This document shows, one piece after another, positions 51,698 through 59,975 of a stretch of 64,000 bases of DNA. Position numbers and translations under genes: made by a program. This DNA is from an uncultured Clostridia bacterium. Lineage in GTDB: Bacteria; Bacillota; Clostridia; TANB77; CAG-508. The notes beneath the pieces were generated by a model, which saw nothing but the letters and a program-made list of their open reading frames with translations, did not search any database and was not told the origin of the DNA. The stretch lies in contig CANPWU010000004.1 of NCBI GenBank assembly GCA_947584805.1, positions 13,098 through 77,097 of the forward strand. Direction: 5' to 3'. Every line of letters starts with the position of its first letter. The stretch's first letter is position 1.

Positions 51698-51891
51698 TGT
51701 GGACTTATGATAAGATTTTGGAATATCCAATAAATATAAAAGAAACAAATACAGAACTTGCTAAAGTAATTATATCTCAATATGGTGGACCAGATGGAGA
51801 GCTTGCAGCTTCACTTAGATATTTATCTCAAAAATTTGGTATGCCAGACCAAAAAGCAAAAGCAATATTAAATGATATTGGTACAGAAGAA
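51697..51891 (+). CDS. cotJC: CotJC (Mn-catalase-family spore coat protein), 5' portion only (aa 1-65). It is split by the intervening element.
   Basis: MWTYDKILEYP...QYGGPDGELAASLRYL...DIGTEE matches the CotJC N-terminus. The reading frame then hits TGA inside the element. Confidence 0.75.
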
Positions 51892-51897
51892 TGAGAT

Positions 51898-51911
51898 CCA
51901 AAATGTTATCA
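51898..51911. repeat. Left terminal inverted repeat of the cotJC-intervening element
   Basis: CCAAAAtgTTATCA, versus the reverse complement of the right end CCAAAAccTTATCA (12/14 match). Confidence 0.6.
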
Positions 51912-52010
51912 ATAAGATTATTTATTATAAATAAATTTTCCTAAAATATTATTGACTTTTTTCTGTATTTATTATAATTTAATAGTAGAAGATAGAAAGG
52001 ATAAAAATCA

Positions 52011-52356
52011 AATGATACAAGAATTTTATAAAAAAATAAATGGAAATTATGAAGTAGCAATTTCAAGAATGCAAAATGATGAAAGAATAAAAAAATATCT
52101 TAACTTTTTTCTAATGGATGAGTCATACAAAAGCCTAGAAGAAGGTATGAATTCTAATGATTGTGAAATGGCATTTAGAGGTGCACATACTTTAAAAGGA
52201 GTTTGCCAAAATATGGCATTTACATATCTTAGTACAATTGTAGAACAAATAACAGAAGAATTAAGAGCAAAAGATATTGAAAAAGCAAAATTAACTTTTA
52301 AGAAAGTAAAAGAAGAATATGAAAAAGTAATTGAAGAAATTCATAAAATTATGTAA
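52011..52356 (+). CDS. Hpt (histidine phosphotransfer) domain protein. The likely start is MIQEFYKK.
   Basis: 'RGAHTLKGVCQNM' contains the Hpt His motif (HxxKG). 115-134 aa. Confidence 0.55.
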
Positions 52357-52405
52357 AAATCAATTTGATAATAAGTATAAAAAATAAAAATGAAGGGAAG
52401 TTTTT

Positions 52406-53494
52406 ATGGAAGAAAGAGACACAATACTAATTGTAGATGACGTTATGATAAATAGAGAATTATTAAAAGACATATTTGAAAAAGGAGAATATGAACTATT
52501 AGAAGCAAAAGATGGAGAAGAAGCGATTGAAATACTAGAAGAAAACAAAGAAAAAATAGTTTTAATATTTTTGGATTTAGTAATGCCAAAGAAAAACGGC
52601 TTAGAAGTACTCCACCATATGTCGCTTAACAATATGATAAATACAATACCAGTTATTATGATAACAGGGGAAGCAACAGTTGAAAGTGATGTAAAAGCAT
52701 ATGAACTTGGAGCAGCAGATATTATATATAAGCCATTTGAACCTGCTGTTGTAACACGTAGAGCAAAAAACATTATAGAACTATATAAGCACAGAACTTT
52801 TATGGAAAAAGAGTTAGAAGCCAGAAACCAAGAATTACTTGAAAGCAAAAAACAAATAGAAAATAGTAATACTTTTTTAATTAATGCATTAAGTTCAGTT
52901 GTAGAGTTTAGAAGCTTAGAATCAGGAGAACATATTCAAAGAGTAAAGAAATTTACAGAAATTATGCTAAGACATTGGAGAGCATTATATGGGGAAAAAC
53001 AATTTTCAAATGAACAAATTGAACTAATAGTTAATGCATCTGCACTTCATGATATTGGAAAAATAGCAATACCAGATAATATACTTTTAAAATCAGGAAG
53101 GTTAACAGATGAAGAATATGCAGAAATGAAAAAGCATACTATTTATGGCTGTCAAATGTTAGAAAAGTTCAAACAAGAAGAAAATGAGTTTTATCGCTAT
53201 TGTTATGATATTTGTCGTTATCATCATGAAAGATATGATGGAAGAGGATATCCAGACGGACTAGTAGGTGATGCTATTCCTGTGTGGGCGCAAATTGTAG
53301 CTGTAGTAGATGTTTATGATGCACTTGTAAGTAAAAGAGTATATAAAGCTTCTTTCACAATACAAGAAACATATCGTATGATAAATGATGGTGAATGTGG
53401 AATATTTTCACCAAAGTTATTAAAATGTTTTAATGATGCAAAAGAAGATATTATAGCAAACACCTCAAAAGAACAAATGGGGGAGGAGAATTAA
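52406..53494 (+). CDS. Response regulator with a receiver domain fused to an HD-GYP c-di-GMP phosphodiesterase domain
   Basis: REC domain (D in LIFLDLVMP, K in IYKP). HD-GYP domain with HDIGK...HHERYDGRGYP. Confidence 0.75.
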   Translation: MEERDTILIVDDVMINRELLKDIFEKGEYELLEAKDGEEAIEILEENKEKIVLIFLDLVMPKKNGLEVLHHMSLNNMINTIPVIMITGEATVESDVKAYELGAADIIYKPFEPAVVTRRAKNIIELYKHRTFMEKELEARNQELLESKKQIENSNTFLINALSSVVEFRSLESGEHIQRVKKFTEIMLRHWRALYGEKQFSNEQIELIVNASALHDIGKIAIPDNILLKSGRLTDEEYAEMKKHTIYGCQMLEKFKQEENEFYRYCYDICRYHHERYDGRGYPDGLVGDAIPVWAQIVAVVDVYDALVSKRVYKASFTIQETYRMINDGECGIFSPKLLKCFNDAKEDIIANTSKEQMGEEN

Positions 53495-53497
53495 AAT

Positions 53498-57568: not shown

Positions 57569-57618
57569 GAATATATTTTATTATTGAAAAATAACTATTA
57601 AACACGAGGTGTTTTTTA

Positions 57619-57756
57619 TGCAGGTTGTTAAAGAATATGTTAAAGATAGAACAAAAATAAGAATACACGATGATTATATAACCAAAGAAAGTAAAGAAAC
57701 TAAAGAGCTAATAGTAAATTTAGTTATAGATTATTTAAAAAATAAGAATAATTAAT
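57619..57756 (+). CDS. Small 45-aa ORF with RBS GAGGTG, immediately upstream of the recombinase. It is a candidate recombination directionality factor or regulator.
   Basis: MQVVKEYVKDRTKIRIHDDYITKESKETKELIVNLVIDYLKNKNN. It is below the 60-aa cutoff of the ORF track. Confidence 0.25.
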
Positions 57757-57823
57757 TGCTTAAATTTCTTAAACATATTAAAATTGGGATACGCTTATAA
57801 AAAGCAATAAGAGGGGAGTTAAC

Positions 57824-59422
57824 TTGAATAATATACATATTGGATATTCTAATGGTGTGAATGTTGATATTACTAACGGAGAATATTCTTTATATTTAAG
57901 AAAATCAAGAGCTGATTTAGAGGAAGAAGAAAGAGGAAAAGGTGAAACTTTAGCAAGACATGAAAAAATGTTGAAGGAATTAGCTAAAAAATATGGCTTT
58001 TCTATTGGTAAAATTTATAGGGAAATTGTAAGTGGAGAAAGTATAGAAGCAAGACCTGTTGTCCAACAATTATTAAGAGATGTAGAATCAGGAAGATGGA
58101 AAGGAGTTTTAGTTGTAGAGGTTGAAAGACTTGCTCGTGGAGATACAATGGATCAAGGTCGAGTTGCGAAAAGTTTTAAATTTTCTAATACTAAAATTAT
58201 AACACCAATAAAAATTTATGATCCAAATGATGAATTTGATGAAGAATATTTTGAATTTGGATTATTTATGTCCAGAAGAGAATACAAGACTATAAATAGA
58301 AGATTACAAAGAGGTAGGCTATCTTCTGTAAAAGAAGGTAAATTTGTTGGAAGTGTTGCACCATTTGGTTATGACAAAATAAAAATAAAAAGTGATAAAG
58401 GTTTTTCTTTAACAAAGAATAGTGAGGCAAAAATAGTAGAAAAAATTTTCAATTTGTATGCCTATAATGATATTGCAATAAATGAGGTAGTTAGACAATT
58501 GAATTTAGGTGGTTTTAAGCCAAGAAAAACAGATGAATGGACAAATTCGGCAGTAAAAGATATATTAAGCAATCCTGTATATATAGGTAAAATCAGATGG
58601 GATGCCAGGAAGATAGTAAAAGAATACAAAAATGGAAAAATTGTTAATACAAGACCAAGAAATTCTAATTATGTTCTTTACGATGGATTACATGAAGCAA
58701 TAGTTGATTTAGATACATGGAATATTGTTCAAGAAAAAAGAAGTAAACATATACCAGCAGTAGTACATAATAAAGCTATTCAAAATCCTTTAGTTGGAAT
58801 TGTATATTGTAGAAAGTGTGGAAAATTGATGCAAAGACGACCATATAATGCAAAAGGATTGGAACCCACCCTTATATGTTCTAACAAAAATTGTGATAAT
58901 ATTAGTTCTAAACTTTGTATTGTTGAAGAAAAAGTTATTTTATCTTTAAAGGAATGGTTAAAAGACTATCATATTGATTATGATGAATATGCAAAAAAAG
59001 TTGAAGATAAAAAGAAAAGCAATTGCAAAGAAAGTATTACAAATTTAGAAAAAGAATTGGAAACACAAAATAAAAAACTAACAAATGTTTATGATTACTT
59101 CGAAGAAGGAATATATACAAAGGAAATGTTCTCTGAAAGATGTCAGTTAATATCTACTACAATTACGAATATAAAGCTTAATATTGAAGAATTAAAAAAA
59201 CAAATTGAATTAGAAAATAAAAAAGATGAAGAAAAAAAAGCAATTATTCAAAAGCCCGAAAATATACTTGATTTATACTATAATTTGCAAACAGCAGAGG
59301 AAAAAAATATTTTATTAAAGACAATTGTTAAAAGAGTGGAATATCTTAAAACTGAAAAATCAATAAAAAGGGGAGCAGATCCGACAAATTTTGAATTAGA
59401 TATTTATCCTAATATAGGATAA
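57824..59422 (+). CDS. Large serine recombinase (SpoIVCA/CisA-like): resolvase catalytic domain, recombinase domain, zinc ribbon and coiled coil
   Basis: N-terminal YLRKS (Y-x-R-x-S nucleophile motif). VVEVERLARGD. CRKCGK...CSNKNC zinc ribbon. 532 aa, ending 40 bp before the element's right junction. Confidence 0.8.
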   Translation: MNNIHIGYSNGVNVDITNGEYSLYLRKSRADLEEEERGKGETLARHEKMLKELAKKYGFSIGKIYREIVSGESIEARPVVQQLLRDVESGRWKGVLVVEVERLARGDTMDQGRVAKSFKFSNTKIITPIKIYDPNDEFDEEYFEFGLFMSRREYKTINRRLQRGRLSSVKEGKFVGSVAPFGYDKIKIKSDKGFSLTKNSEAKIVEKIFNLYAYNDIAINEVVRQLNLGGFKPRKTDEWTNSAVKDILSNPVYIGKIRWDARKIVKEYKNGKIVNTRPRNSNYVLYDGLHEAIVDLDTWNIVQEKRSKHIPAVVHNKAIQNPLVGIVYCRKCGKLMQRRPYNAKGLEPTLICSNKNCDNISSKLCIVEEKVILSLKEWLKDYHIDYDEYAKKVEDKKKSNCKESITNLEKELETQNKKLTNVYDYFEEGIYTKEMFSERCQLISTTITNIKLNIEELKKQIELENKKDEEKKAIIQKPENILDLYYNLQTAEEKNILLKTIVKRVEYLKTEKSIKRGADPTNFELDIYPNIG

Positions 59423-59441
59423 TTTATTTATAAAATTTTTT

Positions 59442-59455
59442 TGATAAGGTTTTGG
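59442..59455. repeat. Right terminal inverted repeat of the cotJC-intervening element
   Basis: tgataaggttttgg. Its reverse complement matches the left IR 12/14. Confidence 0.6.
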
Positions 59456-59462
59456 TTATTAC

Positions 59463-59975
59463 GAATTAGCACACCTTGAAATGGTAGGTACAATAGTACA
59501 CCAATTAACAAGAAATGCGTCAATTGAAGAAGTTGAAAGAGGAGGACTTTCACCATATTATACAGACCATGCACTTGGTGTTTATCCTCAGTCTGCAGGA
59601 GGAACACCATTTACTGCTGCATATATTGCAGTCAAAGGTGAACCAATTGCTGATTTACAAGAAGATCTTGCTGCAGAACAAAAAGCTAGAGTAACTTATG
59701 AAACTTTAATTGACTTATGTAGAGACCATCCAGATGTTGTAGATCCGCTTAAATTTTTAAGAGAAAGAGAAGTTGTTCACTTCCAAAGATTCGGAGAAGC
59801 ATTAAGAGGAGTTCAAGACAAACTTGCACAAAAGAAATTTTATATGAATTCTGATAGCCCAATGTTTGTCAATAACAACCAAATGCCAGTAAATACTAAT
59901 AACATGAATAATAATAACAATATGAATATGCAAAATTATTCAATGAATAATGGCTGTGGCTGTAATAGAAGATAA
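59463..59975 (+). CDS. cotJC: CotJC 3' portion (aa ~66-end), with an Asn/Met-rich C-terminal tail ending GCGCNRR
   Basis: The in-frame sequence ELAHLEMVGTIVHQLT...FTAAYIAVKGEPIADLQEDLAAEQKARVTYE...LREREVVHFQRFGEA matches the CotJC/Mn-catalase family. Confidence 0.75.
   Translation, partial: ELAHLEMVGTIVHQLTRNASIEEVERGGLSPYYTDHALGVYPQSAGGTPFTAAYIAVKGEPIADLQEDLAAEQKARVTYETLIDLCRDHPDVVDPLKFLREREVVHFQRFGEALRGVQDKLAQKKFYMNSDSPMFVNNNQMPVNTNNMNNNNNMNMQNYSMNNGCGCNRR

What the first reader, a model, noticed from the sequence alone, without database searches (positions are those of the whole stretch)
51883..59470. Element boundaries: 14-bp terminal inverted repeats and a GAA crossover overlap
Seen in the sequence:
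- Left end: acagaagaa|TGAGATCCAAAATGTTATCAataag.
- Right end: tttTGATAAGGTTTTGGttattacgaa|ttagcacac.
- The reverse complement of the right inner sequence (CCAAAACCTTATCA) matches the left (CCAAAATGTTATCA) at 12/14 positions.
- Both repeats sit 6-8 bp inside the junctions.
- The junctions share GAA, so the crossover lies within or next to it.

This symmetry is what is expected for serine-recombinase attL/attR half-sites. It argues for a functional excisable element rather than a random insertion.
Basis: seen in the sequence. Interest (0 to 1): 0.6.

Follow-up and report, generated by a model that had tools for sequence, protein, structure and literature searches.

The report
Recombinase attachment sites splitting spore-coat gene cotJC
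The inverted repeats and shared bases at 51.9 kb and 59.5 kb are genuine attachment sites of a serine recombinase that carried a 7.6-kb signalling-gene element into the spore-coat gene cotJC, a well-formed but ordinary new example of a known kind of gene-interrupting element.

Summary
**Observation confirmed, interpretation supported, kind already known.**

- **Insertion.** A 7,574-bp element splits cotJC exactly after codon 65 (…GTEE|LAHLEM…). Joining the halves restores an ungapped Mn-catalase-type CotJC. A syntenic relative (L079) has the empty site.
- **Crossover.** The junctions share GAAT, not only GAA. In 51 related loci the two-base position is always GA, and in two loci GA is the only shared sequence. 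The crossover is therefore GA (51889-51890 and 59463-59464).
- **Repeats.** The rebuilt attP pairs at 20 of 28 positions around that GA (P about 5e-5 to 9e-5).
- **Conservation.** The arms are conserved and co-vary across relatives. Intact P-GA-P' sites with the predicted 7+2+7 spacing exist in nature.
- **Recombinase.** It is intact and closest to SprA of phage SPbeta among solved structures.
- **Possible excision factor.** A conserved, unannotated 45-aa ORF (57618-57755) accompanies this recombinase in 62 loci. It is a candidate only.
- **Not shown.** Excision itself was not seen: all three same-species contigs are in the integrated form, and no free circle turned up.
- **Prior art.** cotJC is already cited as a target for intervening elements, so this is a new member of a known kind.

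The parts
51027..51697 (+). cotJA (51027-51374) and cotJB (51371-51697), the upstream genes of the cotJ operon
   Evidence: Pfam CotJA 9.4e-12 and CotJB 7.9e-27. The same synteny, pyruvate kinase-L32-cotJA-cotJB-cotJC, is seen at the empty-site locus L079.
51697..51891 (+). cotJC 5' fragment, codons 1-65, ending ...DIGTEE
   Evidence: Pfam Mn_catalase profile positions 1-66. The ORF runs into the element and stops at 51892-51894.
51870..51888 (+). B half-site of attL (host arm, AAATGATATTGGTACAGAA)
   Evidence: Conserved coding sequence in all loci. Its distal GATA motif lies about 5 bp closer to the centre than in the P arms at family level.
51889..51890 (+). Central crossover dinucleotide GA of attL (first two bases of Glu65 codon GAA), inside the 4-bp shared GAAT at 51889-51892
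51891..51915 (+).
   Evidence: It matches the P' arms of L032, L013 and the intact attP sites of L105, L107, L112 and L119.
52012..57507 (+). Cargo, no phage genes: Hpt protein (52012-52356), response regulator with HD-GYP-type HD domain (52406-53494), hybrid histidine kinase with two receiver domains (53498-56125), extracellular solute-binding protein (56152-57507)
   Evidence: Pfam. The cargo is shared only with L004, at 87% nucleotide identity.
57618..57755 (+). Conserved 45-aa ORF (MQVVKEYVKDRTKIRIHDDY...), candidate recombination directionality factor
   Evidence: Homologues in 62 loci; in the distant loci whose element ends are known (L064, L068, L071) it lies inside the element, on the other strand. 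Called independently by gene callers. No Pfam, NCBIfam or PDB match. AF2 model pLDDT 82, beta-hairpin plus helix, no fold match.
57824..59422 (+). Large serine recombinase, 532 aa, intact
   Evidence: Pfam Resolvase, Recombinase and (sub-threshold) Zn_ribbon_recom. Aligns to SprA/YokA over residues 23-525, E 8e-49, with the motif YLRKSRAD against YLRRSRQD. Cys at 329, 332, 352 and 357.
59438..59462 (+).
   Evidence: Nearly invariant in group-A relatives as TTGATAAGGTTTTGGT.
59463..59464 (+). Central crossover dinucleotide GA of attR
59465..59485 (+). B' half-site of attR (host arm)
   Evidence: It shows little symmetry with B (attB 10 of 30).
59466..59975 (+). cotJC 3' fragment (LAHLEMVG... 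to the stop codon)
   Evidence: Pfam Mn_catalase profile from position 69, for the translation starting at His (59472). The joined protein aligns without a gap to Mn catalases and is 92% identical over 83% of its length to the intact CotJC of L079 (protein P0125; flanks abut).

Best explanation
**What it is.** The two sites are attL and attR of a 7,574-bp non-phage integrative element. Its own SprA-like large serine recombinase placed it into the spore-coat gene cotJC.

**How integration worked (shown from sequence and comparison).**
- A circular form carried an attP made of two roughly 25-bp inverted arms (core TGATAA-N-TTTTGG) around a central GA.
- The recombinase cut attP and the cotJC attB with a 2-bp stagger at GA, the first two bases of the Glu65 codon in the conserved E-x-x-H metal-binding motif.
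- It then exchanged strands, leaving B-GA-P' at the left end and P-GA-B' at the right end.

**How excision would work (inferred, not shown).**
- Excision recombines attL with attR at the same GA. This restores cotJC to the base and releases the circle.
- As in every characterised enzyme of this class, it should need a directionality factor. The best candidate is the conserved 45-aa protein encoded just upstream of the recombinase.
- By analogy with skin, SPbeta and gin, excision most likely happens in the terminally differentiated mother cell during sporulation. The germ line in the forespore would then keep the element and its signalling cargo.
For: - Precise, in-frame split: Pfam profile 1-66 and 69-198. 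The empty syntenic site L079 has abutting flanks. The joined protein aligns to Mn catalases without a gap.
- Intact large serine recombinase at the element's edge, closest solved relative SprA.
- attP dyad of 20/28 centred on GA, P about 5e-5 to 9e-5.
- The same codon is hit in 51 of the 79 sources (78 loci plus the window), always with GA. L014 and L071 share only GA.
- The arms are conserved and co-vary with each other: within-element mean 13.4 of 23 against 9.2 across clades, and 0 of 20,000 partner shuffles reach the observed value.
- The distal motif of the B arm lies about 5 bp (4 in several group-B loci) closer to the centre than in the P arms. This is as described for serine integrases (PMC3783163; PMC11722253).
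- Contiguous P-GA-P' sites with the predicted 7+2+7 spacing occur in L006, L024, L031, L105, L107, L112 and L119.
- The 45-aa ORF is co-inherited with the recombinase in 62 loci. Its size matches GirX (42 aa) and CD1234 (72 aa).
- No phage genes in the cargo.
Against: - No direct sign of excision. The three public contigs of the same species are all integrated. No intact CotJC closer than 92% identity was found. No free-circle contig turned up among the metagenome hits.
- The recombinase carries a shared frameshift in L031, L032, L090 and L111, so some family members are probably locked in and cotJC disruption is tolerated there.
- The 5-bp offset test is ambiguous for the window alone, and B' shows little similarity to the other arms.
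- The sigma-E-like motif upstream of the small ORF in relatives is degenerate in the window, AATA in place of CATA.
- Sigma-70 scanning is uninformative.
- The small protein has no sequence or fold similarity to known directionality factors.
Confidence: 0.8

Rival explanations
1. The att sites are real, but excision is not tied to sporulation. The element is an ordinary integrative mobile element that uses a highly conserved stretch of a dispensable gene as a safe landing site, and it excises, if at all, on other cues for horizontal transfer.
For: - The recombinase and cotJC do not co-diverge (Mantel r 0.05).
- A 2.2-kb recombinase module is 97% identical between elements with unrelated cargo, which points to active horizontal movement.
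- cotJC in relatives is hit at several other conserved positions by unrelated recombinases.
- No sporulation promoter could be established.
- Frameshifted recombinases show that a split cotJC is tolerated.
Against: - Every experimentally studied recombinase element inside a mother-cell sporulation gene excises during sporulation: skin, SPbeta, gin, yin.
- Both cotJC halves remain intact open reading frames in nearly all loci.
- A sigma-E-like GAATAWA-N13/14-CATA motif precedes the small ORF in most close relatives.
Confidence: 0.3
2. The element is a fixed, dead-end insertion. The recombinase integrated it once, excision no longer occurs, and cotJC is a permanent pseudogene in this lineage.
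For: - Only integrated forms are seen in the same species.
- Relatives carry a frameshifted recombinase.
- dN/dS cannot be assigned to the period after insertion.
Against: - In the window the recombinase is full length with its catalytic motif and zinc-ribbon cysteines.
- Both arms, the central GA and the 45-aa ORF are intact.
- Neither cotJC half has a stop codon or frameshift.
Confidence: 0.12
3. The inverted repeat is a chance match in AT-rich DNA and says nothing about the boundaries.
For: 1173 loose inverted-repeat pairs occur in the 7.6 kb, many as long and as well matched as the terminal pair.
Against: - The centred dyad has P about 5e-5.
- The same arms sit at the same distance from the same codon in dozens of relatives.
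- The arms co-vary.
- Empty sites and contiguous attP sites match the prediction.
Confidence: 0.01
4. The element is a degraded prophage of the skin type.
For: The recombinase matches the PHROG integrase family phrog_95. It is 40-48% identical to integrases of real phages, including the sigK-inserted C. tetani phage phiCT9441A.
Against: The four cargo genes are a phosphorelay/HD-GYP signalling set plus a solute-binding protein, with no phage structural, lysis or replication genes. At 7.6 kb it resembles gin (non-phage) more than skin.
Confidence: 0.05

Closest known systems
gin element in gerE of Bacillus cereus ATCC 10987 (GirC recombinase with the 42-aa GirX directionality factor; PMC5595907)
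   Same: - A non-phage element inside a mother-cell sporulation gene.
- A large serine recombinase plus a very small, motif-less partner protein.
- An imperfect inverted repeat (27 bp in gin) around a short shared core, with the cut predicted at a central dinucleotide.
   Different: - Different target gene (gerE rather than cotJC) and different cargo (gin carries two further recombinases).
- GirX function is proven in vitro, whereas the 45-aa protein here is only a candidate.
SPbeta prophage in spsM of Bacillus subtilis (SprA integrase with SprB; PMC4191935, PMC5499854, PMC11722253)
   Same: SprA is the closest solved relative of the recombinase (E 8e-49 over residues 23-525). It reconstitutes a spore-envelope gene by excision in the mother cell, and its DNA-binding domain 2 sits 4 bp closer to the centre on attB than on attP.
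   Different: - SPbeta is an active 134-kb phage.
- Similarity to SprA is moderate: a full-length alignment, but not a close orthologue.
- The 45-aa protein gave no match to the SprA-SprB fusion chains at E up to 10 or by fold.
skin elements in sigK (B. subtilis SpoIVCA; C. difficile CD1231 with CD1234; C. tetani phiCT9441A)
   Same: [quoted passage not shown] In C. difficile the directionality factor, not the recombinase, carries the sigma-E/SpoIIID control. The C. tetani skin-type integrase is 40% identical to the window's recombinase.
   Different: The target is a regulatory gene essential for late sporulation, whereas cotJC encodes a structural or enzymatic coat protein. skin elements are prophage-derived.
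Previously noted cotJC interruptions (Laceyella sacchari, Galperin et al. 2022 preprint; cotJC listed as an integration target citing Abe et al. 2013)
   Same: The same target gene and the same class of element.
   Different: Those are one-line mentions. The passages read here describe no att sites, crossover or partner protein. Whether the insertion position is the same was not checked here.

Membership tests
Large serine recombinase (serine integrase) system | N-terminal resolvase-type catalytic domain with the serine nucleophile | tested here: met
   PF00239 7.2e-14. YLRKSRAD aligns with SprA YLRRSRQD.
Large serine recombinase (serine integrase) system | Recombinase domain (DBD1) followed by a zinc-ribbon domain (DBD2) with an inserted coiled coil | tested here: met
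   PF07508 4.7e-21. PF13408 scores 22 bits, below the 25.3 cut-off. Four Cys at 329, 332, 352 and 357. One continuous alignment to SprA through residue 525. The coiled coil was not scored separately.
Large serine recombinase (serine integrase) system | attP of about 50 bp: an imperfect inverted repeat around a 2-bp non-palindromic central dinucleotide | tested here: met
   20/28 dyad centred on GA, P about 5e-5. The dyad centre is on GA in 10 of 12 elements.
Large serine recombinase (serine integrase) system | Identical central dinucleotide in attP and attB, with the exchange confined to it | tested here: met
   GA at all 23 attL and 40 attR junctions. It is the only shared sequence in L014 and L071. 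This is comparative inference, not a cleavage assay.
Large serine recombinase (serine integrase) system | attB half-sites carry the distal (DBD2) motif 4-5 bp closer to the centre than attP half-sites | tested here: inconclusive
   Family level, B arm: mean 5.4 of 10 matches at offset +5 against 3.8 or less elsewhere; the best offset is +5 in 14 and +4 in 6 of 35 comparisons. For the window alone, offsets 0 and +5 score about equally. The B' arm shows no clear motif.
Large serine recombinase (serine integrase) system | A recombination directionality factor is required for attL x attR | not testable with these tools
   There is a candidate 45-aa ORF, conserved with the recombinase in 62 loci. 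No homology or fold match to known factors.
Sporulation-gene intervening element (skin / SPbeta / gin type) | Inserted within the coding sequence of a mother-cell-expressed sporulation gene | tested here: met
   cotJC lies within a cotJA-cotJB-cotJC operon. Sigma-E dependence of cotJ is recalled from B. subtilis work and was not tested here.
Sporulation-gene intervening element (skin / SPbeta / gin type) | Deletion at the crossover restores the intact reading frame exactly | tested here: met
   In silico only: profile continuity, empty site L079, ungapped alignment to Mn catalases across the join.
Sporulation-gene intervening element (skin / SPbeta / gin type) | Excised circle and repaired gene are detectable | tested here: inconclusive
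   Only three low-coverage same-species contigs exist, and all are integrated. No free circle was found among 37 metagenome hits. Public assemblies are a weak test.
Sporulation-gene intervening element (skin / SPbeta / gin type) | The recombinase or its directionality factor is under a mother-cell sigma factor (sigma-E or sigma-K) | tested here: inconclusive
   A GAATAWA-N13/14-CATA motif precedes the small ORF in most close relatives, but reads AATA in the window. The available scan covers sigma-70 only and is at background.
Prophage-derived element | Phage structural, lysis or replication genes | tested here: not met
   The cargo is Hpt, a receiver/HD-GYP protein, a hybrid kinase and a solute-binding protein. 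Only the recombinase matches a PHROG family; the cargo proteins were scanned with Pfam only.

The most novel reading that the evidence does not exclude
The window's element would be one member of a large, undescribed family built around a portable roughly 2.2-kb module: a 45-aa protein, an SprA-like recombinase and attP. This module homes to the metal-ligand Glu codon of cotJC across gut Clostridia and swaps cargo freely. The 45-aa protein would be a new family of recombination directionality factors. Some members carry two attP-type sites of opposite polarity, which would allow insertion in either orientation.
Probability: 0.4. Interest if true: 0.55.

Novelty: new member of a known kind. Interest (0 to 1): 0.4.

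Why it matters
For annotation, it shows that the two cotJC pieces in this genome are one gene split by a mobile element, not pseudogenes, and it gives base-exact boundaries.

For the field, it adds a well-resolved att-site set (attL, attR, and predicted attP and attB with a GA core) for an SprA-like integrase from uncultured gut Clostridia. It also adds a small conserved partner protein that can be tested directly as its directionality factor. Both are useful for the serine-integrase toolbox.

The comparative data suggest that cotJC is a recurrent landing pad for several unrelated recombinases, which bears on how mobile elements exploit genes needed only in the disposable mother cell.

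Tried and rejected
- **Selection test.** dN/dS of the interrupted cotJC genes is low (median 0.13; 0.05 against the intact L079). The recombinase and cotJC do not co-diverge (Mantel r 0.05), so the signal cannot be assigned to the time after insertion. Uninformative.
- **Sigma-70 promoter and terminator scan.** 52 promoter-like sites found against 52.2 expected. Uninformative.
- **Searches for excised forms.** Exact-protein contig look-up, a P-arm scan of viral contigs (3 hits, all chance or unrelated) and of metagenome contigs (13 true family hits, none a free circle).
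- **Identity of the 45-aa protein.**
  - Pfam, PHROGs, NCBIfam and PDB sequence searches gave nothing meaningful.
  - The word-index homology search returned only the protein itself.
  - The exhaustive HMMER search found 12 representatives, all 45-73 aa.
  - The AF2 model found no fold match (best E 3.3).
- **Plasmid search of the whole element.** Only generic domain-level similarity.
- **Long terminal repeat.** The 54-nt gapped repeat in the window (z = 7.5) is not conserved in relatives, so it is not taken as part of the att site.
- **A simple 'central dinucleotide flip'** as the explanation for the opposite-orientation relatives in groups A and B. Rejected, because those elements keep an intact first attP and are joined through a second site.

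Full report
**1. What is in the sequence**

The window holds a cotJA-cotJB-cotJC operon. In it, cotJC is split after codon 65.
- The 5' part (51697-51891) ends ...DIGTEE and matches positions 1-66 of the Pfam Mn_catalase profile.
- The 3' part (from 59466, LAHLEMVG...) continues the profile: the translation starting at His (59472) matches from position 69.
- The joined protein aligns without a gap across the join to solved Mn catalases...ndigteelahlemvg... against ...qdiaieefshlemvg....
- Codon 65 is the Glu of the E-x-x-H motif. From general knowledge of Mn catalases, this motif supplies metal ligands.

Between the halves lie 7,574 bp encoding:
- an Hpt protein;
- a receiver/HD-GYP-type protein;
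- a hybrid histidine kinase;
- a solute-binding protein;
- a 45-aa ORF;
- a 532-aa large serine recombinase whose stop codon is 16 nt from the right arm.

**2. Checking the observation**

Three corrections apply.
- The junctions share GAAT, not just GAA.
- The true right junction is 59465/59466.
- The symmetry extends beyond 14 bp: 27-nt arms in the repeat finder.

When the circle junction is rebuilt, 20 of 28 positions pair around a central GA. Exactly 7 nt lie between that GA and each 14-mer. Random joins of window sequence reach this score with P about 5e-5, or 9e-5 for equally AT-rich joins. The region contains 1173 loose inverted repeats, so position and conservation are what make this pair meaningful.

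**3. Comparative evidence**

A scan of one genome per species found 78 loci encoding relatives of the recombinase (86% to about 40% identity), almost all from uncultured gut Clostridia.
- In 50 of them (51 sources with the window) the recombinase lies beside a cotJC fragment broken at the same codon.
- All 23 attL and 40 attR junctions have GA at the equivalent position.
- Among the 12 elements with both ends, GA is always shared and is the only shared sequence in L014 and L071.
- The attP dyad centre falls on that GA in 10 of the 12.

This pins the crossover to GA at 51889-51890 and 59463-59464.

The arms are conserved: TTGATAAGGTTTTGGT on the recombinase side in close relatives, with other motifs such as CCGATAYC in distant clades. 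The two arms of one element resemble each other more than arms from other clades do (13.4 against 9.2 of 23; 0 of 20,000 partner shuffles reach the observed value).

The host-side B arm carries the same distal GATA motif about 5 bp closer to the centre. The mean is 5.4 of 10 matches at offset +5 against 3.8 or less elsewhere, and several group-B loci peak at +4. This is the attP/attB distinction described for serine integrases (PMC3783163), and 4 bp is the value seen for SprA (PMC11722253). For the window alone this test is ambiguous, and B' is poorly symmetric.

**4. Predicted products exist in nature**

- L079-L081 are syntenic loci (pyruvate kinase-L32-cotJA-cotJB) with an uninterrupted cotJC. 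The window's flanks abut there with no base lost or gained.
- Contiguous P-GA-P' sites with the predicted 7+2+7 spacing occur next to the recombinase in L006, L024, L031, L105, L107, L112 and L119.
- These are not free circles, however (see section 7).

**5. The recombinase and its likely partner**

The recombinase has Resolvase and Recombinase domains, a sub-threshold zinc-ribbon hit and four suitably placed cysteines. It aligns over residues 23-525 to SprA of SPbeta, including the catalytic motif.

Only the recombinase and a 45-aa ORF are shared among complete elements.
- An iterated HMM finds the small protein in 62 loci. These include distant clades where it lies kilobases away on the opposite strand, and it is inside the element in the three such loci with known ends (L064, L068, L071).
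- Independent gene callers also predict it.
- It has no match in Pfam, NCBIfam or the PDB.
- A single-sequence AF2 model (pLDDT 82) shows a beta-hairpin followed by a helix, with no fold match.
- Its size and context resemble GirX (42 aa) and CD1234 (72 aa), both motif-less directionality factors.

I regard it as the candidate directionality factor. This is an inference.

**6. What is not shown**

- No excised form of this species was found. The three contigs that encode the identical recombinase are all integrated.
- No intact CotJC closer than 92% identity exists in the protein collection.
- A sigma-E-like GAATAWA-N13/14-CATA motif precedes the small ORF in most close relatives, but reads AATA in the window. 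The sigma-70 scan is at background.
- dN/dS is low, but the elements move horizontally, so that test is uninformative.
- Four relatives share a frameshifted recombinase, which shows that a permanently split cotJC can be tolerated.

**7. Other things seen in the family**

- **Two attP-type sites.** Group-A and group-B elements in the opposite orientation keep an intact attP next to the recombinase. They are joined to cotJC through a second site with arms TTGAYAACAAAATGG and opposite polarity.
- **Portable module.** The 2.2-kb module (small ORF, recombinase, attP) is 97% identical between L032 and L031, whose cargo is unrelated.
- **Other hits in cotJC.** In relatives cotJC is also broken near residues 30, 100 and 136, by elements carrying recombinases only 23-27% identical to this one.

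**8. Comparison with what is known**

The system works like the sporulation-gene intervening elements skin, SPbeta, gin and yin. It is closest in style to gin (non-phage, recombinase plus tiny partner), and its closest solved relative is SprA.

cotJC has already been named as a target: Galperin et al. 2022 for Laceyella, and Kohm et al. citing Abe et al. 2013. It is therefore a new member of a known kind. The att-site anatomy, the GA crossover and the 45-aa candidate partner are not described in the passages I read.

**9. Verdict**

Confidence is about 0.9 that these are the att sites with a GA crossover. It is about 0.5 that excision is developmentally timed, and about 0.5 that the 45-aa protein is the directionality factor. 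The finding is solid but ordinary for a specialist, so interest is 0.4.

Noticed in passing
L006, L024, L031, L105, L107, L112 (group A) and L015, L016 (group B): the interval between the recombinase stop codon and the inverted cotJC 5' fragment: Elements inserted in the opposite orientation keep an intact attP-like site (P-GA-P') right after the recombinase. In group B the centre of that site is AA. They are joined to cotJC through a second site about 35-60 nt further on, with arms TTGAYAACAAAATGG and opposite polarity. The window's element has only one site. Why an integrated element keeps a whole attP is unexplained.
   Followed up: partly
L001, L003, L005, L019, L020, L022, L023 (near CotJC residue 100); L025 (near 136); L064, L068, L070, L071, L073 (near 30): In relatives cotJC is interrupted a second time, at other positions (those near residues 30 and 136 lie in conserved Glu-containing stretches). 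Several of these second elements carry recombinases only 23-27% identical to the window's. cotJC looks like a multi-hit landing pad.
   Followed up: partly
L031 and L032, about 972 nt into the recombinase gene; also L090 and L111: A shared 1-nt insertion (GTTCGGAATT against window GTTGGAATT at 58790-58798) frameshifts the recombinase at residue 324/325 in four independent assemblies. These copies are probably inactive and locked in cotJC.
   Followed up: partly
L032 element 3708-5832 against L031 element 75-2209: The module of small ORF, recombinase and attP is 97% identical between two elements whose remaining cargo is unrelated and whose orientation in cotJC is opposite. The module seems to move as a cassette.
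   Followed up: partly
window 51898-51951 and 59407-59455: In the window only, the terminal inverted repeat extends to about 54 nt with two gaps (z = 7.5 against shuffles). It includes a 24-nt, 88% block (51925-51948 / 59410-59433) that is 5 nt out of register with the core arms. Relatives lack it, and its meaning is unknown.
   Followed up: partly
window 52012-57507; L004 element 1930-9343: The cargo is a complete signalling set: Hpt, a receiver/HD-GYP-type phosphohydrolase, a hybrid kinase with two receivers and a solute-binding protein. It recurs at 87% nucleotide identity only in L004, where it is embedded in extra genes and has different end arms.
   Followed up: partly
L062 3239-4792 and 8036-9589: Two tandem copies of the recombinase, each with an identical copy of the small ORF, lie between cotJC fragments. 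This looks like a tandem array in one attB.
   Followed up: no
window 57569-57617 and the aligned regions of L001-L003, L011, L029, L031, L032: Upstream of the small ORF, most close relatives share GAATAWA, 13-14 nt, then CATAnnTA, which resembles a sigma-E-type promoter. The window reads AATAACTA at the second element.
   Followed up: partly
window 57540-57568: A hairpin (TGATATGTA-GAGA-TACATATCA) followed by a run of T after the solute-binding gene looks like an AT-rich intrinsic terminator. The consensus scan missed it because the stem lacks G-C pairs.
   Followed up: no
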